From: Macrostomum lignano
Taxonomy: Eukaryota
Assembly: GCA_002269645.1 (NCBI GenBank)
Contig: NIVC01000135.1
Coordinates: forward strand, 248,001 to 312,000
Length of the DNA stretch: 64,000 nucleotides
Direction of reading: 5' to 3'
Of the stretch, positions 5,458 to 60,300 are shown piece after piece. The notes beneath the pieces are model-generated. The model did no database searches. It saw only the letters and a program-made list of their open reading frames with translations, and was not told the origin of the DNA. Every line of letters begins with the position of its first letter. Position 1 is the stretch's first letter. The translations under genes were made by a program, and so were the position numbers.

Positions 5458-8400
5458 ATATTACTACTGCTACTACTGCTACTACTACTTCTATTCGTTA
5501 GGTCGTATCTCATACGAGTCATTATTCCATTGTCATCAGGCTAAACGCATTACAATGCATTGGGTCGATTTTCTACTCTATAAAGGTCACTCAGTGCTGA
5601 AATGCCAACCCACCGTCCATAGCGCCGTCTCGCCCAAGCACAGGCTCAGCCAATAGACGTAGGCGCCGCTGCTAGGGCGCCGTTCAATCCGCGCCAGGCG
5701 GCCGTTAGCCAACGGAGCGGTCGCGGCAGCAACACCGCCTGTAGCAGAAGCGCCCGAAGCAGAGGCGGCAGAGTGGAAGCTCAGCTTACAAGGAAGAAAG
5801 GGCGGCCTGTCTCGCAACTCGCCAGCGTCCAGCTGCTCCGAGTCGCTGGAACTCGCCGACGAGTCGCCGGCATCGCCCGAGGCTGAAGCCGACTCAGACG
5901 ATGCCGATGAAGAAGAGATTCTGGACCGGCGCTGTCGGTTCTGTTGCTGCTGTTTCTTCTGCGAATTTTTCTGCTTTAAATGCTGCTTCTTCTGCAACAG
6001 TTTCTGCTGCTTTGCTGGCGGCTTATTGTTCGTGTCGGGCTCGTTGAAGTCCCGGCTGTCATGGGCATCGACTGAGGACATCGACACGAGCCGGGGAGGA
6101 CGGCCTCGCTTCTGGCTTTGCTTCTGCTGCTCCTGCTTGCTTGGAGAGGCCGACGGCGAGGAGTGGACAGGCTGGGGCGGAGGGGGCGGAGGCGGCGGTG
6201 GTGGTGGAGGAGGGGGCGGAGGAGGGGGCGGAAGAACCGGTCCGTCAAGAACTGGCGGCTGCGGGCTGGGGCCGCTGGTCGCCTCTGAGCTGGCGAGGGC
6301 GGTGGGCACGGAGGCTGGGACCTGCTGCTCAGCCACCTGAGGCTGAGGCTCGTACAGGTGGCCGAGAAACTTGGGCGTGATGCGCCGTTTGCCGTCTTTG
6401 CCGCGGCTCTCCAGCTGCTCTGACGGCTCCGCTGGCAGAGGCGCCGGCCGCTGGGGCTGCTGCTGCTGCTGAGCGGCTGCAGATGAAGCCGCTTTGGCCA
6501 CGGAGGCCTGCTGGAGTCTGCAGCGAATTAATAATAGTTACAGTATATGCGTGACTGTACAGCATGACGTGAATCACCCACTAGAGTATGGCGTGAATCA
6601 CTCTCTAGATCATGGGGTGAATCACTCACTAGATCATGGGGTGAATCACTCACTAGATCATGGGATGAATCACTCACTAGATCATGGGGTGAATCACTCA
6701 CTAGATCATGGGGTGAATCACTCACTAGGTCATGGGGTGAATCACTCACTAGATCATGGGGTGAATCACTCACTAGATCATGGGGTGAATCACTCACTAG
6801 ATCATGGGGTGAATCACTCACTAGATTATGGGGTGAATCACTCAATAGGTTATGACGTAAATCACTCACTAGATTATGGCATGAATCACTCACTAGATCA
6901 TGGCGTGAATCACTCACTAGATTATGGGGTGAATCACTCACTAGATTATGGGGTGAATCACTCACTAGATTATGGCATGAATCACTCACTAGATCATGGC
7001 GTGAATCACACAATAGATTATTAGGTGAATCACTCACTAGAGTATGGCGTGAATCACACACTAGATTATGGGGTGAATCACTCACTAGATTATGGGGTGA
7101 ATCACTCACTAGATTATGGCATGAATCACTTACTAGATCATGGCGTGAATCACACAATAGATTATTAGGTGAATCACTCACTAGAGTATGGCGTGAATCA
7201 CACACTAGATTATGGGGTGAATCACTCACTAGATTATGGGGTGAATCACTCACTAGATTATGGGGTGAATCACACACTAGATTATGGGGTGAATCACTCA
7301 CTAGATTATGGGGTGAATCACTCACTAGATTATGGGGTGAATCACACACTAGACATGGCGTGAACAGCAACAAATAAGCGTAATCACCCGGTCACCAACC
7401 TACCTGAGCAGTTGCGGGTCGCTGACAGGCAGCGGCCGGTTGCAGCCGGGGGCGCTGCCGCACTCAGTCAGCAGTGCGGAGTTGCCGTACCGCTGCCGGT
7501 GAATCCTGGCCAGGTCCCGCCGGCTGACCGGCTTGCCCAGTTCATCGGGGCCGAAGTGAAGCAGCGCCACGGTGCCGTCGTGAGACGCCGCAGCCAGCAC
7601 GAGACCGTCCGATGACCAGGCGAGATCGCAGACGCTGCCAGCGAACAGGTCGTGCAGGGCGAGCACAGGACGGCGCATTGAAGTCAGCCAGATGGACACG
7701 CTGCGGTCCTGGTGGGTTTAAGGGGCGATTCTCAGGTAGGTTTATGGGGCGATTCTCAGAATCTCAGGTAGGTTTACTGGCCGATTCTCAGGTAGGTTTA
7801 TGGGGCGATTCTTTAATCCTCACCTTAGATCCCAATGCCATGCAAGCGGCATGCACCTCCTCTTCCTCCTTTTCAGCATTCAGATCGCTTCCACCATTTC
7901 TCAGGCCAGCTCCAGGCCCACTCAGCAAGCAGGGACTGACTGAGCAGCAGGTGACAGCCTTGATGTGGCCCACCAGGTCCATGTCTGAAGCCCATTTGTC
8001 GCGGTGGATCAGCGGGGCCGTGGGGAAGCCGGAGTTCACGGCATTGGCGGCCAGAATGAAGCTGCCGTCCGGTGACCAGGAGGGCCGCAGGAACGGCGTG
8101 GACTGCGGCGCGCCTTTGAATGGCGCCGTGATTCGCGCCTCCTGACGCCACGTGTCGGTGCGCCACACGCACAGGCTGCCGTCGTCGCTCTGCGTTGTTT
8201 TGTTGGGTCAAACAGGGGGCGAGTTTTGAGTTGCCGATTTGTGGGTCAGGCGTATTGGTCGGTGATCCGTAACTTGTGGAAAAAGACAATAAATAGGTAA
8301 ACTCTCGGGGGTCAGTGGACACGTGGGTCAACTGTAATGCTCGATTAGTGGGTCAATGGTATGGGTCAATTAGTTGATCAATTAGTAGGTCAACTGTTTA

Positions 8401-48059: not shown

Positions 48060-48890
48060 ATTAAACTGAGATGCCAAGGCTGAGAGGGAATTGCTGAAAT
48101 ATCAAGACGTGAGGGGAATTGCTGAGATGTCAAGACTTACTGGGGGAATTACTGAGATATAAGGGCTTACTGAGATAATTACTGAGATGCCAAGGCTTAA
48201 GAGTGAATTGCTGAGATGTCAAGGCTTGGAGGGAATTTCTGAGGTGTCAAGGCTTGGTGGGAATTGCTGAGATGTTAAGTCTTGGGGGGGAATTCTATGG
48301 ATTGGGGAATCTTTGAACGAGAGATGCTTCTAATGGATATCTCGAGGAGATGAGGGGATTCTTTGGCCAAGAATTCTATTAATGGGCGGATTATTTGGAT
48401 GGGAGATTCTTTGGATTCCTTGAATGGGGGATTCTGTTGATTGGGATTATTTGGACGTGAATTTTTTGAACGGGTTTTTTAGATGAAGGTATTCTTTGGC
48501 CAGTTATTCTTTTGATGGGAGAATCAATGGATAATGTGGATGGAGATTCTGTGGATGGGGATTATTTGGACGTGGATTATTTGCATGGGGATTCTTTGGA
48601 GGGAGATTCTTTAGTTAGGAATGGATGGGGGATTCTTTGGATATGGATGGGTGGAGGATTCTTTCGATGGGAATTCTGTGAATGAGAGATTCTTTAAATA
48701 AAGATTCTTTTGAATGGGATTCTTTGCATGTGAGATGTTATGAATGGGCAATGCATTGGATGGGAAATTCTTCAGATAGGAGAAGTCCTTGAATGGGAAA
48801 TTCTTTGGATCCGGGATTCTATTGATAGGGGTTCTTTGGATGGGGGATTTTTCTATATGGATGGAGGTCGGGGATTTTTTGGATAGGGAT
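48060..48890. repeat. Degenerate satellite (GCTGAGATGTCAAGGCTT / GGATTCTTTGGATGG); continues at 58597-59790 in the same orientation
   Basis: The same motif families occur on both sides of the TIR element, so the array was split by its insertion. Confidence 0.8.
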
Positions 48891-50503
48891 ACTACTAAGG
48901 GCCGGCAGATCCGCCCTTTTTGGAGGTGGGGTGGGTGTCAACCCTCCTCGCCTCTCATTGGCGGGCGCGCGCGCCGCAGGCGCGTGGCGCCAAGCGCCAA
49001 TTAGGCGCCCATGCCGCAGGCGCACCCTCCCGATATGTGCACCCTCCCGAGCCGCAGGCGCACCTACCGACATGTACCGACATGCCCACCCTCCCGATAT
49101 GTACCCCGATATGTATGCCCACCCTCCCGATATGTATGCCGCAGGCGCACCCTCCCTCCAGAGCAGCAGGCGCCCATGCCGCAGGCGCCCCATGCTGCAA
49201 GCACCCCGAGTGTACACTCTCCCAAGCCGCAGGCACCCGAGTGTACACTCTCCCATGCCGCAGGAACCCCGAGTGTACACTCTCCCACTCTCCCCAGTAC
49301 ACTCTCCCGATATGTATGCATACACAGATATCTAGTCAGCGATATTAGGCTAGTGAAAACTACTTATAGTAGATGAAATTGCGTATATTTACATAAAAAG
49401 TAGATAAAACATATTGGTAGGTGTGAATAATGACACATAATGCATATTAAAATGTACATATTGGAGCATATGAGCAGCAAAATGCACACAATGTAGGCGC
49501 ATATTTGACAGAAATAGACAAAGCAGGTACTGTAGGCGCTACATAGGTGGAAATACACACAGTATAATGCAGGTGCGTACACACTGTAGGTGCAAATTGA
49601 GTATAATACACTAAAATTATAATACATAGCATATAATGTAGGCGCATTTTAAACAATACATTTTTGCATAATAACCCGCAGGTACAAATTTCAGTGCATA
49701 GGCTAAAATACACACTCTGCAAATTGAGTATAATGCAGGAAAATTGTGACATATACAACATATGTATGCAAATTAAGCATATAATGTAGGTGTAAAGTAA
49801 AATACAAGCCACCGGCCCCTAGTAAACAGACACGCCCCCAGAGCCAGGGCCGGGGGATCCCAAGTACAGTGCGGTCAGAGAGGAGTAACATAGAGAAATT
49901 CCTCCCCAAGCCCTAAATAAGGTTTTTTCAAGGGGATCCCAAGTACAGTGCATGCAGAGACTGCACACAAGCAGAGAACATTGACTATTTTCCTCTTGAA
50001 GTTTCATGCAAGGGACCCCTAGTACAGTGCATGCAGAGAGCTATTTTCCTCCCCAATGGGGGTTATCAAGGACCCCTCACCAAGTACGGTGCGGGCAGAG
50101 TAACCGCATACAAATAGGGGTTTTAGCGGATCCCAAGTACAGTGCGCTCCCGGGTGTCAAATGATGCCCCAATGTACAGTGGAGGTAGAGTAACAGACCG
50201 CATACAAAGAGAATTCCAGTCAAACTTTACAGCAGCTCCCACCCCAAATGAGGGTTTTAGTGGATCCCCAGGGGGTAGCTCTCCAAGTTGAGGGATCCCC
50301 CAGTGTGTTGCGAGGCCCAAGTACAGTGCAGGCAGAGAGTAATAGAGACCGCCCCATGTACTGTGCGCTCCCGGGTGTCAAATGATGAAGGACCCCTAAC
50401 TACAGTGCGGGCGTAAAACCATTTTCATCCCCACGAGTCAAGGGATCCCAAGTGGGCACATAGGGGAATCCCAGGCGTAAAAAGACAGATCCTTATCTTT
50501 CAC

Positions 50504-53500
50504 TCACTCCCGAAAGCCATACGGGCGGCTAGCGGCCCCATACACCCTCTTAGTCATTACGCGCTGGAAAGTCTTGTCCATCTCCAGGGTCCGGATTGTA
50601 CAGCTAGCCTTATCGCGCCTGAACTGGGCCTGGGGCAGGCGTACAGTCCCGCCGTGACGCAGAATTTCCTGCAGCTCGTCCTCGCGCTCGGAAATCTCGG
50701 GGGTGACTCTGATGCCCTTGCACTTGAGTACCGAGTACAGCGACCTGTCGGGCTTCTCCACCACGTACCGGTAGAGCTTGGGGCCTCCCGTGGTGAACTG
50801 TACCATGCGGCAGCCAGCAGGTACCTCGTCAGTCCACTGCCCCAAACTCGAACCGCCCGGAGGCTCGTACTCGCCCGGGGAGCAGCGGTATACGACCCTG
50901 GGAGGAGGAGAAGGATAAAAAGTGTTAAGGGGAGAAAGAGAGACAGAGACAGTGAAAAAATTACTTACGAATCGGTATCGGCGTAAATGACGCGGGTTCC
51001 TAGACCCTCCAGAGCCTCGTAGAGTCGCAGCCGGGCGTGGGAGGTGGTGAAAACGCCAATAGGTACATTAGCGTACTTGAACGCCCGCTCGCCAGCGCCG
51101 CCAAATCGGGGCTTGTACTCGAGCATCATGAAGCTCTCCCCAATTGGCTCGCACGACTTGACCTTGATCGAGGGGTCTGTCAGGCGCTGCAGCCACGCCT
51201 CGTAGCTGTCCACAATCTCTGTGGAGGTCAGGTCGTCGCGCTGGCAGAATTTGCCCCAGAGCCTGCAGGGGAAAAATAAATTTTATGTAAGTAGAAAAAC
51301 ACGGTCCCCACTGCAAGTAGAAAAAACTTACGAGTTTAGAAAAATCTTGGCCACAAAGCGCAGGCCGGGATTTTCATCCACCTTTTCCAGCCGGACGCCT
51401 TCGCGCTCGAAAAAGCTGGCCATGTAGGCAGCCTTGGCGTCCTCAGCCATCCCCGGCGAACCGCTAGACTCTGCTTTGAGCTTCAAAAAAGTGTTTACAT
51501 AATCTGCAAACAGGCCCGTGCGAGTCTCGGTCCAATAGGCCAGGGCATGAACTGACTGCAGCTTGTAACCCAACTGCAGGGCTTTGTGGAGCTCTGGGGT
51601 CGACCACGTGCCGCGGAGCATTCTCTCAGCGTCGGTGTGTGTACACTCGCTGCTGCACTGGGTCTCCATGCAGACGCGGCAGAGGCCGAAAACCAGCTTC
51701 TTGCTAATCTTGGCTGGCAGTAGCGGAATGTGGAGATTGGTTGGCGGCAGAATTGACACCTCGGCGATGCCAAAATACCGGGCCAGCTGCTGCTCATCCA
51801 GTAGATGAGGCTCGGGGTGGTGAACCGGGTGCCCGACAGGGTACTTGTCAAACTTGTTGACAGTCGGGTAGAGCGACACCTAGGGGATAAGAGGATAAGA
51901 TAAACTCAAACCCATGTCAACTGTGTGTGTGTACAAGTGTACAAACTTACCACATCCCGATAGCGCAGCTCTACAGTCTCGGTGGCCTCGGCGTGCGGGA
52001 CAAAAGCCTCGGTACGGCCGCCAAACAGGGCATCCTCCAGGCGAATAGGCTGCTGGACTGGCGCTCCCTCGTCCTGATAGTCGTGCTCCCACAGAACACG
52101 CACATTGTATGCAGTGGAGAGCAGCCGGGTGAAGCGCTCAGTCTCCTCATAAATCGCCCGCATTGGCTGGTTCTTGAGCGGGTGCAGCACGTCGCCGTTG
52201 GGGAAGCACTTGGGACAGCCATGGAAGAAGCAGCCATGAAACTGCAGCACTGTCCTGGTCTCTGGGCCGAAGCCGTCGACCTTACGGCCCATGGCGAAAG
52301 CCTCGCCGCCCGAGTCCGCTGTCCGCAACCGGCCGCCAAACTCGGTTGCATTTAAATGTGCCAGCCAGCACCGCGCCTTGTGCGACTGTACATCCGATCG
52401 GCGGGAAATCACCCCAAGAGTGTTGGGCTCCATAAACTTGGTGGTGAATACCGACATGGCCAAGCCCGCAATGGTGTTGGATTGAACAAATGCGTCCAGT
52501 CCGCAAATGTCCTTAATCAGGCGGGCATATTTCAGGCAGCCTTCCCGCAAAATTAGCGTGTCCTGCAGGCAATAGTCCAGATACTCCTTATTAAAATTAA
52601 ACACTTTGCCCTCCTGCTTGGCCAGCCAGTCGGCGATGGAGTCATGCTGCTTGTTTTTCTTTCCTCCGTACATATCAATTGAGCAGTAGGGACCGACGTA
52701 CCCCCAGTTTTCCGGCTGGTTAAACACGTGCGGGAAATCTCCTTTGGTCAGTTGGGTGCCCAAACCAAGCGCCTTTGGGAATTGCGCCAGACCAATAGGG
52801 ATGAAATTGAGGCTGTCCTTGAAGGTGATCTTGTCGCACTTCATGTACATTAGGCGGCTGTTCTGGAAGATCACCTGCGGCTTCTTCTTGGCCAGTCCGT
52901 TGAGTAGGGCGCCGAGCAGGAGGAATGCGTCATACGCAGAGCCATTGTGCGCAATAGCAATTGCCCCCTGCTTGAACACACTAGTCAGCCAGCAGTAAAA
53001 GGCATCGATAGAGTGTGGCCCGACAGATACAAACTCTCGCATCCCACAGGCGCAGTCATTGTGCGAGACACAGCTCGTGAAATCGAGTGCCAAATCGCGT
53101 CCCGCAATGCAATTGGCTGAGCTGTGTAGTCCCCCGCACGCGCTGCAGCGGGGCCTGGGGAAGAGTTTGGGACACGCCTCGCAGGAGGTGGCAGCCGTAA
53201 CCAAGTGTACCCGGTGCTGCTTGCCAGAGTCCACGTACGTCTCGAAATCATAGTAAACATACGGGGCGCTAGACTCTTTGGCTTTGGGCGGGGTGACAAA
53301 GCACTCGTGGGTGGCAGTTTCGTCGTACTGCTTGCAGACTGGACACTTGGCGTAACCGCACTGATGCTCAGGGGGCTGGCCTACTTTTAGTTCTTCTAGA
53401 TAGCCACACGTGCCGCAAACGTGGACCGAATCACAGCGAGATCTGCCCGCCTTATTCTTGCGCTTGTGATTTTCTAGGCACTGAGCATTATAGCAATTTA

Positions 53501-55472
53501 GCCCGCAATCATGGCATCTTACATATGCGCGGTTTGCCTTACAGTTGGAGCCCGGAGTCTTGCATGTACTGCAGGCATCAGCGCACTTGTGCTTCTCATA
53601 ATTGCAATCATAGGCCATCTCGCACTTGGGGCAGTAGTGATCGGAGCCGAAAAACGCAGGCAGCTTGGTAACCACATTAAAGTGCTGCTCGACCAGGTGC
53701 AGGTGCAGAATCTCGGTGCCAGGCAGGTTGAAGATGCACCTGTTGGCCTCCTCTGCGCGGTACACGCGTACACCAAAATCGTGCCCGGGACGCAGCCGGT
53801 TCAGGGCTCGGATCGCTTCGGGCAGTGCATCCACCCCGAAAGGACCGGCCTGCGAGACGGTTTGAAGAGTCTGTGTAGGGGGTAAAATATTTCTTTTAGT
53901 ATTCCCTGATACTGTGTAAAATTCTTTTAGTATTCCATGATACTGCGTAAAAATTCTTATCAGAAAATATATCTTTTAGTATTCCACGATACTGTGTAAA
54001 AATTATTATCAGAAAATTTTAGTATTCCTTATCGTAAAAATTCTTATCGGAAAAATACTAGAAACTTACCGAGTAGAGACCCGCTTCGATTTGTAGCTCA
54101 GTCGCAAGCTTAGTCTGGGCGGGCGAATTGGCCTTGATTGTACGCCACACCTGCATGGTGATGGACTTGGCCACGAATTGCAGGTAGGCGCAGGCCACGA
54201 CCAGAGCGCGCAGCAGGCATCTCTTGTCCGAGTTGGTGATGCGGACATAGTGCTTTGAAAAAGCGTGCCTCTCTTCTAGATGCTTGTTCTCGAGAGCACA
54301 TCCACCTCGAGGCACCCAGGCCTTTAGCAGACGGACAGAAAAGTTGCCTGACAATACAGTGGCATCCGACTGCACAATCTTGTCAATGTGCTTAAACAAC
54401 AATTCAGCCGTCATGCGGGCTGCACGCACCGGGGGAGTATGGGCCGCTTTGAGCATATTGTCGCTCTCGAATTTCGCGGCCATAAAGTCATCACCAGCCA
54501 AATCTTGCTTGAAAACTTCGAGCATGTCGGCAAACACCTCCCGCAAATCTTCGGTGTTGGTAATACGCACCACATACTCGACACCCTTTGCCCTAAACTT
54601 GGGCAGGTCACGCTGATTATCCAGCCGGGCCGTAAAACCTGCATGGGTGGAATGGGGGAGTGTGAGTCAGCCCGGTTCTGTGTGGGAAATGGGGGGTGGG
54701 ATAACTCACCCGGTCCGGTAACAGATTCCGGCTGTGTTGGCGGGACAAACGCGTCTGAAAAAACACAAGGAGATAAAAAACCAGAAGAATCTGTCATTTT
54801 CCTGGCCCCAGCGTGTTTCCCCGCCCTAGCCCAGCAATTTCTTAACAGAGTTTACTCTGCTGTCCCCGCAGCAACTCTCTGCAATTTCTTATCTGCACCC
54901 CCGCTGCAGCCTGTCGCAGCAGTCTTTGTTTACTCACCCCTGCAACTCTCTGTCGCAGCAATTTGCACCTAGCTGCAGCCTGTCTGGGTAGCGCCCTATC
55001 TGCAGCCCCAGTCTGTCCCAGCAACTCTCTGCCCCCACCTGGCTGAACTTGTCTAGCCTGCCCCAACGATTCTGCAGCAATTTCTTATCTGACGCAGCAC
55101 CCTAGCAACTGTCTGTTTTTGCAGCAATTTCTTATCAGCACACCCCTCCTTGTCTAGACAACACCCCCCTAGCAGCAATTTCTTATCAGCACACACCCGG
55201 CTGAAACTTGTCTAGCCCTCCCCTGCAACTCTCTGTTACAGACCCTGCCGCAGCACCCCACCCTAGCAACTCCAGTCTAGACCCCTGCAGCTGTCGCAGC
55301 AGTCTTTGTTGTTTACTCTGCGGTCCCACAGACCCTGCAGCTGCTGCTGCTGCTCAGCCCCTACCCCCACCCTAGCAACTACAGTCTAGACAGAAATTAA
55401 TTAAAACTTACCATAAAGACGTTGCCTCTTGTCAGCCAGGAAAGCAGTTGCGGTGGCGCTGCGTTTAGCCAT
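50504..55472 (-). CDS. polB: Protein-primed family B DNA polymerase, 7 exons, about 1276 aa; exons 55472-55412, 54754-54710, 54638-54070, 53870-51951, 51879-51332, 51262-50969, 50897-50504
   Basis: Exo I YDFETY, Exo II AHNGSAYD, Exo III YCLQD; Vsr-like insert QFHGCFFHGCPKC; Pol motifs DV|VSLYP, KIFLNS|LWGKF, YADTDS|V, KCKG. All donors are GTAAGT/GTGAGT. Exon lengths sum to 3831 nt, and I saw no internal stop. Exons 1-2 are the least certain. Confidence 0.9.
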
Positions 55473-55717
55473 TTTGCAAACAGAGAGTGTGAGAGAGCGA
55501 GCGGAGAGAAGGATTATCTCTCTACCCTGGCTCTGGGGGTCTGTATATATACTAAAAAATCTGCTCAGCTCGCCTGTTATTGGATAAATCGCCAAAAACC
55601 AACCAAAATCATCAAAAATCACCCCCAAAATCACCACCCACCCCACCTCCATCCGGGGTATATAAGGCGCTGCACGGCTGTCAGAGAGCTCTCTGCTGCT
55701 GCCGCTGCTGCTAAATC
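55473..55717. promoter_or_regulatory. Putative bidirectional promoter between polB and the PC4-like gene
   Basis: 245 bp separate the divergent ATGs; TATATATA near 55545 and TATATAAG near 55659. Confidence 0.5.
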
Positions 55718-56251
55718 ATGTCTTCTATCTCTCTATACGAAAACTTTGTGGCGCGGAAGCCCACATTTGAAACTGAACACAACTTGATTGAAATTCGGCG
55801 TCTCTACACCAACGAGGCTGGAGTGTGGAAGGACGGCTTCCCTGCAATCTACTTGAGCGAGCCAGAGTGGAAGAAGCTCGAAGCTGCGCGCCCTGACCTG
55901 GAGGCTGCTGCCCGCCTTCACGTGAACAAGCGGGTCCTGTTGGGCAATTTCAAGGCAGTTGAAGCTTCGCGAGGGAGGATCCGTTTGCTGCGCAATTGGC
56001 TCAATCGGGACCCAAAGTTTAATTGGCGCTACACGATCGAATTCACGCCTGAACTGTGGCGCAGGCTGTTTGCCGCCCGTTTGGACAAGCTCTTCAAGCC
56101 GGCACCTGAGGCACCCCCTCCAGCCAAGCGAGTCAAGACAGACACGCCTCCGGTAGCCGGGACTGAGGTGGATGTTCTTCAGCTCATGGGTCTCAAACCC
56201 TACCAATCTCCGCCCTGGGAAAATCTGTTTAACGAGGGTTGGGACTGCTAG
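55718..56251 (+). CDS. 177-aa protein with PC4/Sub1-like ssDNA-binding motif(s)
   Basis: IEIRRLY..GVWKDGFPAIYLSEPEWKKL resembles the PC4 consensus DIREYY..G..P.KKGISL..EQW..L; a second similar block reads RLLRNW..YTIEFTPELWRRL. Confidence 0.6.
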   Translation: MSSISLYENFVARKPTFETEHNLIEIRRLYTNEAGVWKDGFPAIYLSEPEWKKLEAARPDLEAAARLHVNKRVLLGNFKAVEASRGRIRLLRNWLNRDPKFNWRYTIEFTPELWRRLFAARLDKLFKPAPEAPPPAKRVKTDTPPVAGTEVDVLQLMGLKPYQSPPWENLFNEGWDC

Positions 56252-56367
56252 TTTCCTATTGGTTCGCACCGCCTCACTCGATCCGTCTATATAATTAGTG
56301 TTTCCCCCCTCTCCAGAGAGTCAAACCCTATCTCAGCTCTAATACTTTACTCTCTGTTGATTCTAGC

Positions 56368-57382
56368 ATGTCCCGCCGAGCTCTATCCAACCTCTGGGAT
56401 AATAATCGCCCGACTGAAGAGTTAACCAGCCTCGACGGGGATATCCCTGAACACATAGTTCCCCTAGGCACTGAAAACAACGGAAGTGATAATTGGGAGG
56501 CTGATCAATATCTAGCTTGGGCTATGTCCTATGATAGCGACACCGAGTCTGAAGTTTTTGACCTCCCGCTGCTGGCTATCGGCGGGGTTGTGAACGGTGC
56601 CCCTGCTGCTACTGCCTCCGATTTGACTACCGCCTCAGCCGCCCTCTTTGACGTCTCTGTTGAGGAGCTGACCACAACCGGCCCTGCCTCTGCTGCGCCC
56701 GTCTCTGCTGCTGCCGCCTCTACTACGCCCGTCTCTGCTGCTGCTTCAACTACCTCCCACCGGGCCTCAATATCATCAGCCGCTACGCTCCTTCTCTTCG
56801 ACGACGAGGACGAGGATATGTCTGAGGAGATCGCCGTGGTTCGTGAGCGCTTTCCTCGCATTGTGGCCTCATTTTTCCGCGGGGACATTGACTGGCTGAG
56901 GTCTCGGCATCCTGGCGGGCTGCCCTCCCAAGCTACCTTTGTCAGAGCCTTTAATCGGGTTCTTGATACTTTGGTTGCGAGGGGTGCCGGCCTACGGGAG
57001 GTGTTGGAGGCTGAGACTCTGCACCAGGACTGGTTGATGGGGCGCAATTCGTATGCCCCCGACTCTGAGGCGTACCTGGCCGGTCCGGGAGCGCGGCCAA
57101 CTGCGTGGGATGAGCCCGTCGCATGGCCCTCCAACTGGGAGGAGCACCTTTCGTTGGTGCGCTATACAGCGTCTCTACGTCTGTGGCGGCTGGAGGACGA
57201 TTTAGATTTGGTAAGATATTACATTATATACACAACTCATCTAATCATATACCTTGCATATATTCTATCTACATTGACTGTTATAATTTCCACATTGCCA
57301 GTCATCCGACTACTGCTTCGAGAGCGTGGAGGAAGAGGCCGCGTACGAGACAGCCCTGAGGGAGCGTATGGAGATTGACTGA
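56368..57382 (+). CDS. Orphan acidic protein of the TIR element, probably spliced (56368-57210, 57302-57382; about 307 aa)
   Basis: Long ORF. The AT-rich 91-bp GTAAGA..CCAG segment behaves as a phase-0 intron, giving the tail SSDYCFESVEEEAAYETALRERMEID*. Confidence 0.65.
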
Positions 57383-60300
57383 TAAGGGTATTTCTCTTTG
57401 TACGCGGTTTGGGGAACCCAACACTGTACACTGGGTAGGTTAGAATGGGCGCTAGCTGGGGGCCTCTATGTGTGTATACACGGGGGTTAAAAGACCAATT
57501 CTGATAGCTCGCTCCTAGGGAGGAAATTGGCAGAGGGGCCGGCCCAAAAACTGAAATGGGCTGGCCCCGGGCTCGAGTCCACCCACCTAAAATATGGAGG
57601 GTCATTACAACCTAATGACTCGAAATACTTTCAACGCAATTGTACCTATAAGAGGGTTAGGGCGGCGGTGGTGGCGAAAACGGGCGGCTAAAACCTCCCT
57701 TTTGGGATTTCCCCGAACCGCTTTTGTTTAATATTTATGCACCTGCGGGTTAGACAATATTTACTATTTAGTCGGTGTGACATTATTTACGCGTCTGTTG
57801 CACCTGGGCGTTTGCCTATAATCTGATTATACATGCGTGCCTGTATTATACAACTACACCTTATGCATGCCTTGTAAACCTGCTTTATACATTAATCCGA
57901 TATGTATCGAAAGTACACTTTGTAAACCTGCTGTGTGTATTTCCACCTATGTAGCGCCTACAGTACCTGCTTTGTCTATTTCTGCCCATACACCTACATT
58001 GTGTGTTTTTGCTGCTCATATGCTCCAATATGTACATTTTAATATGCAATATGCGTCATTATTCACCTACCAATATGTTTTATCTACATTTTTATGTAAA
58101 TATACTCAATTTCACCTACTATAAGTAGTTTTCACTAGCCTAATATCGTTGACTGCATATCGTACATATCGGGAGATTGGTAGAGTGTACACTCGGGGTG
58201 CCTGCGGCATGGGAGAGTGTACACTCGGGTGCCTGCAGCTTGGGAGAGTGTACACTCGGGGTGCTTGCAGCATGGGGCGCCTGCGGCATGGACGCCTGCT
58301 GCTCTGGAGGGAGGGTATACATATCGGGAGGGTGGGCATACATATCGGGGTACATGTCGGGAGGGTGGGCATGTCGGTAGGTGCGCCTGCGGCTGGGGAG
58401 GGTCGCCGGTGGCTCGGGAGGGTCGCCTGCGGCTGGACGGCGCTTGGCGCCACGCGCCTGCGGCGCGCGCGCGCCGAGCGCCGATATCGATACGGGTATC
58501 GATCACCTAGTGATCGGGGCGCCAGCCAATGAGAGGCGAGGAGGGTTGACACCCACCCCACCTCCAAAATCAACACATCTGCCAGTCCTTAGTAGTAGGG
58601 ATGGATAGGGGGATTCTTTGGATCGGGGATTCTATCGATGGGGGTTCTTTGGATAGGGATTCTCTGCATGTAAGATTCTATGGATGGGCAATTCTTCAGA
58701 TAGGAGAATTCCTTGAATGGGGAATTCTTGGGATCGGTGATTCTATCGATGGGAGGTTTTTTCGATGGCGGCTTCTTTGCATGTGAGATTCTTTGTATCG
58801 TGGATTTTATGGGTGGTGTATTCTTTGGATGGGGATTCTTTGTATGGGAGATTCAGTTGGGTGAAATTTTATTGCGTAGGAAAACTGTGGCTGGAGTTTG
58901 GACGGAAAGCCCCAACGGGAGTGTGAATTGGCTAGCTAAGGAAATTGCTTCACTAATCTTGCTGGGGGTACTTTCTATCAGGGGATGCTTGCTATCGGAA
59001 GGACGCTTGCTCTTGGGGGATGCTTGCTCGGAAGAGAATTTTAAGATGTCAAGATTTACAAGGGGAATTATTGAGATACATGTATAAAATCTTACCTTGG
59101 GGAATTAATGACATGTGAAGGCTTAAGAGGGACTTGCTGAGATGTCAAGGCTTGTGGGGGAATCGCTGAGATGTCAAGGCTTGTGGAGGGAATTGCTGAG
59201 GTGTGAAGGCTTAAAAAGGAATTGCTGAGGTCTTAAGTCTCGGGGAGGGGAATCGCTAAGATGCCAAGGCTTTGGACGGGGAGAAATTGCTGAGATGCCA
59301 ACACTTACTGGAGGAATTACTGAGATATCAAGGCTTACTGGGAGAATTACTGAGATATCAAGGCTTGGGGAGGGGAATTACTGAGATGTCAAGGCTTTGG
59401 ACGGGGAGAAATTGGTATCATGTCAAGGCTTGCGCCGGAATTGCTTAGATGTCAATGCTTAGGGAAAATTTCTGAGGTGTCGAGGCTTGGGGAAATTGCT
59501 GAGATGTTAAGTCTTGGGGGAATTCTATGGATTGATGATTCTTTGGATGAGGGATGCTTCTAATGGATAAATTTTTGGGCAATTTCTTCGGTGGGGCATT
59601 GTTTCGATGGAGGGTTTTTTGAATGGGGGGTTCTTTAGATAAATGATTCTTTAGATGGGGGGTTATTTGAACGGGGGTTCTTTAGATGAGGGGATTCTGG
59701 ATTCTTTGGCCAATTATTCTTTTGATGGGGGATTATTTAAGGATGTGAATTCTTAGAGGGGGGATTTTTCAGAGAAGGAATTTTTTGGATATGGATGTGT
59801 TGTAACCCGGGTTGGCTTGGGTGCCCAGTCCCGAGTACAATATATATTATATGTGATATAACAGGCGTTGTGACGCTCTGTCTGTACTTTTATGAATACG
59901 ACGAGCAGGCGTGGCGACGCTCTGCGATAATAATTCGATCCCTCTGGTGTTGTGACACTCAGAGTTCACGCTGCGGCTCGAGGTGTGGTGACACTCTCGA
60001 GTGCTTCTATTCTCTATACCGTAGGGCGTACGCAATATATATGGTAAACGGTACCGTACTACAGAAGCTATATGGTCTCCCGGCGTTATGACGCTCTGGC
60101 AAGAATTCGGCCTAGCAAGCTTCCCGGAAAGAAAGGACTCAAACAGCAGGCGGCTTACCAGTGGCCAGATGACTGTTCACCGTTTATTATTCGCAGGTCT
60201 CAAGCGCAGTTTCCGACTTCTTCTTAATTCTCCAAGACTCTTCTCAATTAGGCTATTGTGTTTCTTTTATCCAAGTAGCTAATGTTGCTGTTTCTTTTAT

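What the first reader, a model, noticed from the sequence alone, without database searches (positions are those of the whole stretch)
48891..58596. Minimal capsid-less, integrase-less Polinton-like element: TIR - polB / PC4-like / orphan - TIR
Seen in sequence: about 670-bp TIRs, an exact 6-bp TSD (AGGGAT), and only three genes across 9.7 kb. Established: Polintons/Mavericks are typically 15-25 kb and carry a retroviral-type integrase, packaging ATPase, adenain protease and capsid proteins; the 6-bp TSD is attributed to that integrase. Inference: this element kept a complete replication module (pPolB plus a probable ssDNA-binding protein) but lost its integration and virion modules. It may be a self-replicating linear-plasmid-like or satellite element that borrows integrase or capsid from a helper Maverick.
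Basis: partly seen in the sequence, partly recalled or inferred. Interest (0 to 1): 0.9.

Follow-up and report, generated by a model that had tools for sequence, protein, structure and literature searches.

The report
Polinton split into two cooperating halves
This 9.7-kb jumping element carries a DNA polymerase but no integrase or capsid genes, while a separate 10.5-kb element in the same flatworm genome carries those genes but no polymerase and has matching ends, so the two likely work as the halves of one split, virus-like transposon.

Summary
In detail: ~670-bp TIRs, TSD AGGGAT, three genes (a 7-exon spliced pPolB2, a PC4-fold protein, an orphan), no integrase or capsid. It is one of about 45 near-identical copies; 10 of 10 fetched have the same layout and their own 6-bp TSD. 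The helper is not a full Maverick. The genome holds a second, ~10.5-kb element (M; about 30 copies) with integrase, double-jelly-roll capsid, penton, protease and ATPase but no polymerase. Both start ACTACTA (canonical Polintons here start AGTAGTA) and share the same variable sequence words at positions 8-27. A second, diverged pair (ACTACGTA ends) repeats the arrangement; words are shared within each pair and never across pairs. No copy joining both modules was found. Non-coding 8-9-kb palindromes ride on the same ends. Best reading (0.7): a two-segment Polinton, one segment replicating both, the other integrating and probably packaging both. Shown: anatomy, splicing, copy families, shared ends. 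Inferred: mutual dependence, free linear DNA, particles. Descent from one split ancestor is not shown. Ten literature searches found no segmented Polinton.

The parts
48885..48890 (.). Left target-site duplication AGGGAT
48891..49562 (+). Left TIR (~672 bp, 85-89% to the right TIR)
48891..48897 (+). Invariant end motif ACTACTA, shared with the partner segment M-A and the non-coding palindromes; canonical Polintons here begin AGTAGTA
48898..48917 (+). Variable end zone (positions 8-27), built of words shared with M-A; differs from the right end in this copy; followed by an invariant TTTT at 28-31
50504..50897 (-). pPolB exon 7 (KxY motif, stop)
50969..51262 (-). pPolB exon 6 (LWGKF; motif C YADTD)
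   Evidence: intron 5 joint in 3 of 3 RNA-guessed runs
51332..51879 (-). pPolB exon 5 (SLYP of motif A; K..FLN of motif B)
51951..53870 (-). pPolB exon 4 (vOTU His region, zinc fingers, exonuclease I-III, VSR-like insertion)
54070..54638 (-). pPolB exon 3 (inferred terminal-protein region and vOTU Cys)
   Evidence: domain order from PMC11071308 passages
54710..54754 (-). pPolB exon 2 (45 nt)
   Evidence: joints at both flanking introns
55412..55472 (-). pPolB exon 1 (start codon)
   Evidence: joint 54754-55412 in 2 of 3 RNA-guessed runs
55718..56251 (+). PC4-fold protein, 177 aa, two PC4-like repeats; likely ssDNA-binding
   Evidence: Pfam PC4 E 0.02; 31% to canonical Polinton PC4; model pLDDT 75, top Foldseek rows human PC4, E 2.5e-3, rmsd 1.7
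56368..57378 (+). Orphan ORF, 336 aa, low complexity; open in 7 of 10 other copies that hold it, absent from a sub-family that still has TSDs
   Evidence: no family
57931..58596 (-). Right TIR (variable zone 58570-58589)
58597..58602 (.). Right target-site duplication AGGGAT

Best explanation
The element is likely the replication segment (R) of a two-segment Polinton: it encodes a spliced protein-primed polymerase and a PC4-fold protein, a separate 10.5-kb segment (M) with matching ends encodes integrase and capsid genes but no polymerase, and each would supply what the other lacks. Steps: (1) shown: R is transcribed and spliced by the host; all polymerase, exonuclease and vOTU motifs are intact. 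(2) inferred: R's terminal protein primes at the ACTACTA ends of excised linear R and M and copies both by strand displacement, PC4 coating the displaced strand. (3) inferred: displaced strands fold back through their TIRs, which usually makes both ends of a copy identical, and pair with ends of the other segment, which moves end words between R and M. (4) inferred: M's DDE-chromodomain integrase inserts either segment with a 6-bp duplication (the TSDs are shown). (5) least certain: M's capsid set packages both. Non-coding palindromes with the same ends are parasites of the pair. The pair has existed long enough to diverge into two lineages, A and B, each with its own R, M and end code.
For: Complementarity: M holds rve integrase (E 1.8e-9), a double-jelly-roll MCP (pLDDT 80, Foldseek E 4e-17 to PBCV-1/Sputnik/mavirus capsids), penton, core proteins, protease and ATPase, and no pPolB hit in 12 of 12 gene-bearing copies read (C1711, C382, C807, C181, C4, C2210; C251, C261, C392, C594, C175, C996). 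17 of 20 M-A end pairs span 10.3-10.7 kb and the 3 longer ones hold no pPolB; 25 M-B pairs span 7.6-14.4 kb. Nearest listed pPolB2 match to any of 120 M ends is 39 kb away. Shared ends: M-A words at positions 8-14, 15-20, 21-27 occur in R-A ends in 21, 24, 15 of 24 cases and in R-B in 0 of 24; M-B words occur in R-B in 8, 11, 8 of 12 and in R-A in 0 of 12; three whole 27-mers are shared by M-A and R-A. All 14 canonical Polintons whose ends I saw start AGTAGTA. Activity: 6-bp TSDs in 28 of 29 A-type R/palindrome pairs, 9 of 10 M-A, 9 of 9 B-type R/palindrome, 4 of 5 M-B. Selection: synonymous versus replacement differences among R-A copies 405:132, 115:38, 42:0, 74:13, 183:102 in five pPolB exons. 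A-versus-B four-fold-site differences are alike for R (0.64, 365 sites) and M (0.61, 513 sites). Splicing: four GT-AG joints in contigs of RNA-guessed runs from three studies, none in the DNA run.
Against: No free linear DNA, particle or trans-integration was observed; expression of M was not tested. Canonical Polintons with intact integrases are abundant in the same genome (151 matches), also make 6-bp TSDs and also have a variable end zone. M-B positions 28-50 equal those of R-A, not R-B, so lineage pairing is not clean beyond position 27. Common ancestry of R and M is not shown: third-position GC is 0.67-0.68 in R and 0.49-0.53 in M, and of 80 metagenome loci with an M-like MCP none was labelled pPolB2, 14 pPolB1 (five of them weak and ambiguous), 66 had no polymerase on short contigs. 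Four-fold sites are near saturation, so equal divergence dates little. Counts of ends include both ends of a copy and possible homologous duplicates, so they are not independent. The pPolB2 profile that found nothing in M also missed the pPolB1 control; pPolB1 is excluded only by tblastn with three queries and by lack of room.
Confidence: 0.7

Rival explanations
1. One-way satellite: M multiplies without R (as an integrase-driven DNA transposon or with a host polymerase), and R, like the palindromes, only borrows M's integrase and perhaps capsid by mimicking its ends.
For: M carries everything needed to excise and integrate; its TIRs and TSDs are intact. R and M differ in introns and codon composition, as expected for partners of separate origin. 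PLVs without pPolB exist (PMC11071308 passage).
Against: M has no replication gene (largest ORF 427 aa) yet keeps a repeated trinucleotide end typical of protein priming. The flow of variable end words between R and M is easiest to explain if both are copied by one polymerase. Palindromic fold-back derivatives of M exist (C1313, two inverted MCP matches in 14.4 kb), a product expected from strand-displacement copying.
Confidence: 0.12
2. R and M are independent parasites of the canonical AGTAGTA Polintons: R borrows their integrase, M their polymerase; their shared ends only reflect old ancestry.
For: Many canonical Polintons with open integrase and pPolB1 frames are present, and pPolB-deleted canonical derivatives have amplified (C738/C255, C424), so trans use is common here. 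R's PC4 is homologous to theirs.
Against: Ends differ from the first bases (ACT versus AGT) and no end word zone or TTTT anchor is shared with canonical elements. Old ancestry cannot explain identical, currently polymorphic 27-mers in segments that share no internal sequence, nor the separate A and B codes. M has its own intact integrase and R its own intact polymerase, each under constraint.
Confidence: 0.1
3. R and M are internal-deletion derivatives of a full-length, roughly 20-kb parent that is present in the worm but missing or collapsed in this assembly, or lost recently.
For: The assembly is fragmented (5269 contigs) and searches score only the best candidates. R plus M adds up to a normal Polinton gene set and size.
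Against: No fused copy among 45 paired M elements or the R copies read; the one close MCP-pPolB2 pair is a nested insertion with its own TSD. Neither segment keeps remnants of the other's genes, unlike the canonical deletion derivatives. The same split would be needed twice, in A and B. R and M TIRs differ beyond about 31 bp.
Confidence: 0.08

Closest known systems
Polintons/Mavericks (adintoviruses) with pPolB2 carrying a VSR insertion
   Same: TIRs, 6-bp TSD, TP-vOTU-exonuclease-polymerase pPolB with VSR domain (profile hits OTU1 E 0.001, VSR E 0.02, phi29 polymerase E 1e-7; VSR class described in bioRxiv 10.1101/2023.08.22.554363, passages). R plus M give the full gene set of PMC8097293 section 7.
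   Different: Gene set lies on two separately integrated elements; ends are ACTACT not (AGT)2, (AG)3 or (AC)3A; pPolB has six spliceosomal introns whereas intact vertebrate Mavericks are reported intronless (PMC8097293 passages).
Capsid-less Polintons (PMC4028283)
   Same: Concerted loss of MCP, protease and ATPase (nine elements; passage).
   Different: The passage lists no loss of integrase; R also lacks integrase, and a complementary partner exists.
Bidnaviruses and Drosophila Vesanto virus
   Same: pPolB on one segment of a segmented genome; segments have matching termini (PMC8502044 passage; PMC8363768 passages).
   Different: Those are ssDNA viruses with an unrelated capsid (PMC11071308 legend); here the capsid is a double jelly roll, there is an integrase, and both segments are integrated with TSDs.
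Yeast cytoplasmic linear plasmids (zymocin killer 9 kb + helper 13 kb)
   Same: Two linear pPolB-type replicons that depend on each other; derived from Polintons by loss of the morphogenetic module (PMC13348850 abstract start; PMC11071308 passage).
   Different: Cytosolic, not integrated, no capsid; R is nuclear by its introns and the partner keeps capsid and integrase.
Tlr1 and pPolB-less Polinton-like viruses (closest to segment M)
   Same: Integrase plus capsid set without a standard pPolB (PMC11071308 passage).
   Different: Tlr1 and PLVs replace pPolB with a helicase fusion or other replicase; M has no such gene.

Membership tests
Polinton/Maverick | Protein-primed family B polymerase | tested here: met
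   PF03175; motifs and exon phases intact
Polinton/Maverick | Retroviral-type integrase on the same element | tested here: not met
   None in six frames of R; present on partner M
Polinton/Maverick | MCP, penton, protease, packaging ATPase on the same element | tested here: not met
   None in R; all on M
Polinton/Maverick | Long TIRs and 6-bp TSD | tested here: met
Polinton/Maverick | End motif (AGT)2, (AG)3 or (AC)3A | tested here: not met
   Ends are ACTACTA or ACTAC[G/A]TA against PMC8097293 section 7
Polinton/Maverick | Intronless genes, 13-25 kb | tested here: not met
   Six introns, four seen spliced; 9.7 kb (R plus M about 20 kb)
Polinton/Maverick | Extrachromosomal protein-primed replication | not testable with these tools
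   Only contigs were available for the runs laid
Bidnavirus / Vesanto-type segmented pPolB virus | Segments with matching termini | tested here: met
Bidnavirus / Vesanto-type segmented pPolB virus | Parvovirus-type capsid, no integrase | tested here: not met
   Double-jelly-roll MCP and rve integrase on M
Segmented (bipartite) virus in the strict sense | Both segments encapsidated and needed together for transmission | not testable with these tools
   Needs particles from the animal
Cytoplasmic linear plasmids | Cytosolic, non-integrated, own transcription genes | tested here: not met
   Integrated with TSDs, spliceosomal introns, no RNA polymerase gene
Transpoviron / Tlr1 | Superfamily 1 helicase fused to a pPolB remnant | tested here: not met
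   No helicase family in R or M ORFs; R keeps the exonuclease

The most novel reading that the evidence does not exclude
A segmented double-jelly-roll DNA virus: an animal Polinton whose genome travels as two separately packaged and separately integrating segments, recognised through a private, recombining 27-bp end code that keeps co-resident lineages A and B apart and is parasitised by non-coding fold-back satellites.
Probability: 0.4. Interest if true: 0.95.

Novelty: new variant of a known kind. Interest (0 to 1): 0.88.

Why it matters
Polintons are defined by carrying polymerase and integrase together. A stable division into a replication segment and an integrase-plus-capsid segment, kept through a deep A/B divergence, would be a living intermediate between Polintons, capsid-less linear plasmids and segmented pPolB viruses. 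It means polymerase-only and polymerase-less elements in other genomes, usually filed as broken, may be partners that can be found by matching ends. Three natural end types (canonical, A, B) in one laboratory animal make an open question testable: which terminal bases a Polinton polymerase and integrase recognise.

Tried and rejected
Pfam A32 search of the genome gave 0 matches although canonical ATPases are there: insensitive, not used. Long ORFs inside R-B copies proved to be LINE insertions. C106, a 21-kb element with A ends and Polinton genes, is a canonical Polinton nested in a palindrome with its own ends and TSD. MCP 3 kb from R-A pPolB in C2932 is R inserted in a canonical MCP gene; C4072 looked alike in the listings and was not read. 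Long end pairs C56, C4, C2210, C200, C694, C583, C126, C538 hold insertions or no genes, no fused element. A first B-end pattern had the wrong spacing and gave only background. Viral-contig scans: none with one exon, three distant PLV-like contigs with the alignment, uninformative on ancestry. Orphan: no Pfam, PHROG or Atlas hit; not folded. MCP had no PDB sequence match. The 79% MCP match in C2855 is an isolated fragment. No RNA holder was on record as RNA; the runs used are guessed RNA. Earlier findings for this genome: none. Exact-context look-up of outside relatives was closed, so P0038-P0040 have no known neighbours.
Full report
Observation. The element runs from 48891 to 58596 between two AGGGAT hexamers, inside a degenerate 15-16-bp satellite. 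Its TIRs align over about 670 bp at 85-89%. It has three genes. pPolB lies on the minus strand in 7 exons with 6 GT-AG introns whose phases fit without internal stops, 1276 codons. Contigs of three runs guessed to be RNA, from three studies, join across introns 2, 3 and 5 (3 of 3 runs) and intron 1 (2 of 3); the DNA run shows none of these joints; introns 4 and 6 are not among the rows shown (15 rows hidden), and reads may come from any copy. A profile of exon 4 with 14 relatives matches phi29 polymerase, OTU1, VSR and zinc fingers, the pPolB2-VSR type. The second gene folds like PC4 (E 2.5e-3, so above the tool's 0.001 line, but backed by homology to a canonical Polinton protein with PC4 at E 1e-7). 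The third is an orphan. No integrase, capsid, protease or ATPase was found in six frames. UniRef labels on the nearest proteins name Macrostomum lignano.

An active family. One pPolB exon finds 127 matches in the genome; by my count from the listing 45 are 94-100% identical over the exon (family R-A) and 26 are 67-71% (family R-B). Ten of ten R-A copies fetched have the same layout and ten different 6-bp TSDs. Synonymous differences exceed replacements in all five pPolB exons tested, all measured against the window copy and so not independent; PC4 (24:35) and the orphan (13:7) are less clear. R-B elements are about 9.5 kb, start ACTACGTA, have 6-bp TSDs in 6 of 6 first read, and keep the same intron positions; most lost PC4, but C157 and C694 keep it. 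The genome also holds several canonical Polinton families with integrase, capsid set and pPolB1. Their polymerases give no meaningful match to R's exons, and all 14 whose ends I saw begin AGTAGTA. So R is not a deletion product of those.

The partner. A search with a canonical integrase (151 matches, 150 of 2385 candidates scored) led, in its weakest group, to C1711: 10.3 kb, starting with the same ACTACTA end and variable words as R-A. It carries Fic, three unknown ORFs, a TBP-like ORF, two core-type proteins, a DDE integrase with chromodomain, penton, MCP, protease and ATPase, on one strand, with no room or match for a polymerase. The MCP model is a double jelly roll. This segment, M-A, has 59 ends and 20 pairs, 17 of them 10.3-10.7 kb; 21 full matches to the MCP query, 14 in a 443-codon open frame. 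A sister family M-B (75% DNA identity; integrase 82%, MCP 87%) starts ACTAC[G/A]TA like R-B and has 61 ends and 25 pairs. Twelve gene-bearing M copies were read in full and none has pPolB; the rest were judged by span and by distance to listed pPolB2 matches (106 places typed, duplicates at one place dropped; nearest 39 kb). R and M share no internal sequence.

The end code. In all classes positions 1-7 and 28-31 are fixed (partly by the pattern used to collect them) while positions 8-27 differ at 30-49% of sites between ends, against 0-12% at positions 28-60 in R-A, M-A, M-B and the A palindromes (B-type R ends vary there too). The two ends of one copy usually agree (20 of 29, 8 of 10, 9 of 9, 4 of 5). 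The words are shared by lineage: M-A with R-A in 21, 24 and 15 of 24 ends and with R-B in none; M-B with R-B in 8, 11 and 8 of 12 and with R-A in none. Segments with unrelated interiors that share polymorphic words must exchange ends, which implies that they replicate together (inference). Against neat pairing, M-B positions 28-50 match R-A, and canonical elements have their own variable zone.

Passengers. The A-type TIR motif occurs 232 times. Of 18 loci read, chosen mostly because they were missing from the pPolB list, 17 lack pPolB; those examined are near-perfect 8-9.4-kb palindromes with arms 99-99.9% alike and 6-bp TSDs. B-type palindromes exist too (199 end matches against 16 control). 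They show that the ends alone suffice for copying and insertion in trans.

Mechanism. Shown: complementary gene sets, matching ends, TSDs on all classes, splicing and constraint on pPolB. From established Polinton biology (PMC11071308 passages): the N-terminal terminal protein primes replication and vOTU likely releases it. Inferred: R's polymerase copies R, M and palindromes; fold-back of displaced strands equalises ends and cross-pairing shuffles the words; M's integrase inserts all three; M's capsid may package them. Confidence 0.7. Whether the pair arose by one Polinton splitting or by two elements joining forces is open: A-B divergence at four-fold sites is alike in R and M (0.64, 0.61, near saturation), but third-position GC differs, and M-type MCPs form their own clade (100/100) with three unnamed outside proteins at 80-81%, apart from the canonical MCPs in the tree, with no pPolB2-bearing relative among 80 metagenome loci (long branches flagged by the tool, rows without polymerase left out of the tree).

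Comparison and novelty. R fails Polinton membership on integrase, capsid set, end motif and introns, while R plus M meet the gene set. Matching termini across segments are known in bidnaviruses, and mutual dependence in yeast linear plasmids, but these lack the double-jelly-roll capsid and integration. Ten searches of the open library listed no segmented or bipartite Polinton and no description of Macrostomum Polintons. I read passages of PMC8097293 (plus section 7), PMC11071308, PMC8502044, PMC8363768, PMC4028283, PMC11296320, PMC10214139 and bioRxiv 10.1101/2023.08.22.554363, only listings or abstract starts of the others, and no supplements; subscription papers and Repbase were not searchable, and either, or the supplement table of PMC4028283, may already list one of these halves. 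Two unchecked notes from this scan describe a polymerase-only and a polymerase-less element in other genomes, a lead that such pairs may be wider. Verdict: real, a new variant of a known kind, interest 0.88.

Noticed in passing
G000 C176, C93, C303, C261 (L091, L092, L095, L096); B type C903, C126 (L261, L253-254): Non-coding 8-9.4-kb near-perfect palindromes with the same ends and 6-bp TSDs, probably more numerous than R itself; resemble copy-back defective genomes.
   Followed up: partly
G000 C2286, C1945, C485 (L036, L039, L054-055): Different LINE elements sit at the same glutamine-codon repeat just after the putative first pPolB exon of R-B, in two cases in frame with it; further LINE insertions in C200, C694, C583. 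Possible hot spot.
   Followed up: no
L115 (G000:C157:55000-64999): An R-B copy that keeps PC4 plus a dUTPase-like ORF and a serine-rich ORF, perhaps the fuller R layout.
   Followed up: partly
L141:4447-5250 and 6791-7324: M-A carries a Fic-domain gene (absent from M-B) and a TBP-like ORF (Pfam E 2.5e-4) kept in both M lineages.
   Followed up: no
L108 (G000:C24) and L346-347 (C2932): R-A sub-family with TIRs extended to about 1.3-1.4 kb, orphan lost and PC4 tail changed, still with 6-bp TSDs.
   Followed up: partly
G000 C738, C255, C424, C2301, C3189: Canonical Polinton derivatives with most of pPolB deleted, or with the capsid module duplicated as a palindrome, amplified to many copies.
   Followed up: partly
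G000 C106 (L105-107) and C2932: Mutual nesting: a canonical Polinton inside an A palindrome, and R-A inside a canonical MCP gene, so both systems were active in the same period.
   Followed up: yes
L111-112 (G000:C234:57200-59000): Decayed pPolB2 relic, 36-45% to R, apparently without introns 4 and 5: introns may have been gained in the R lineage before A and B parted.
   Followed up: partly
canonical Polinton ends, e.g. C114, C393, C10, C130: Positions about 8-22 are also hypervariable between canonical families, so a variable end zone may be a general, little-noticed Polinton trait.
   Followed up: partly
P0038, P0039, P0040, P0049: Unnamed outside MCPs at 80-81% (and one at 46%) to M, basal to M-A and M-B: the system may exist in other hosts.
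   Followed up: partly
window:60928-62175 (-): 415-aa ORF right of the element with no Pfam match.
   Followed up: no
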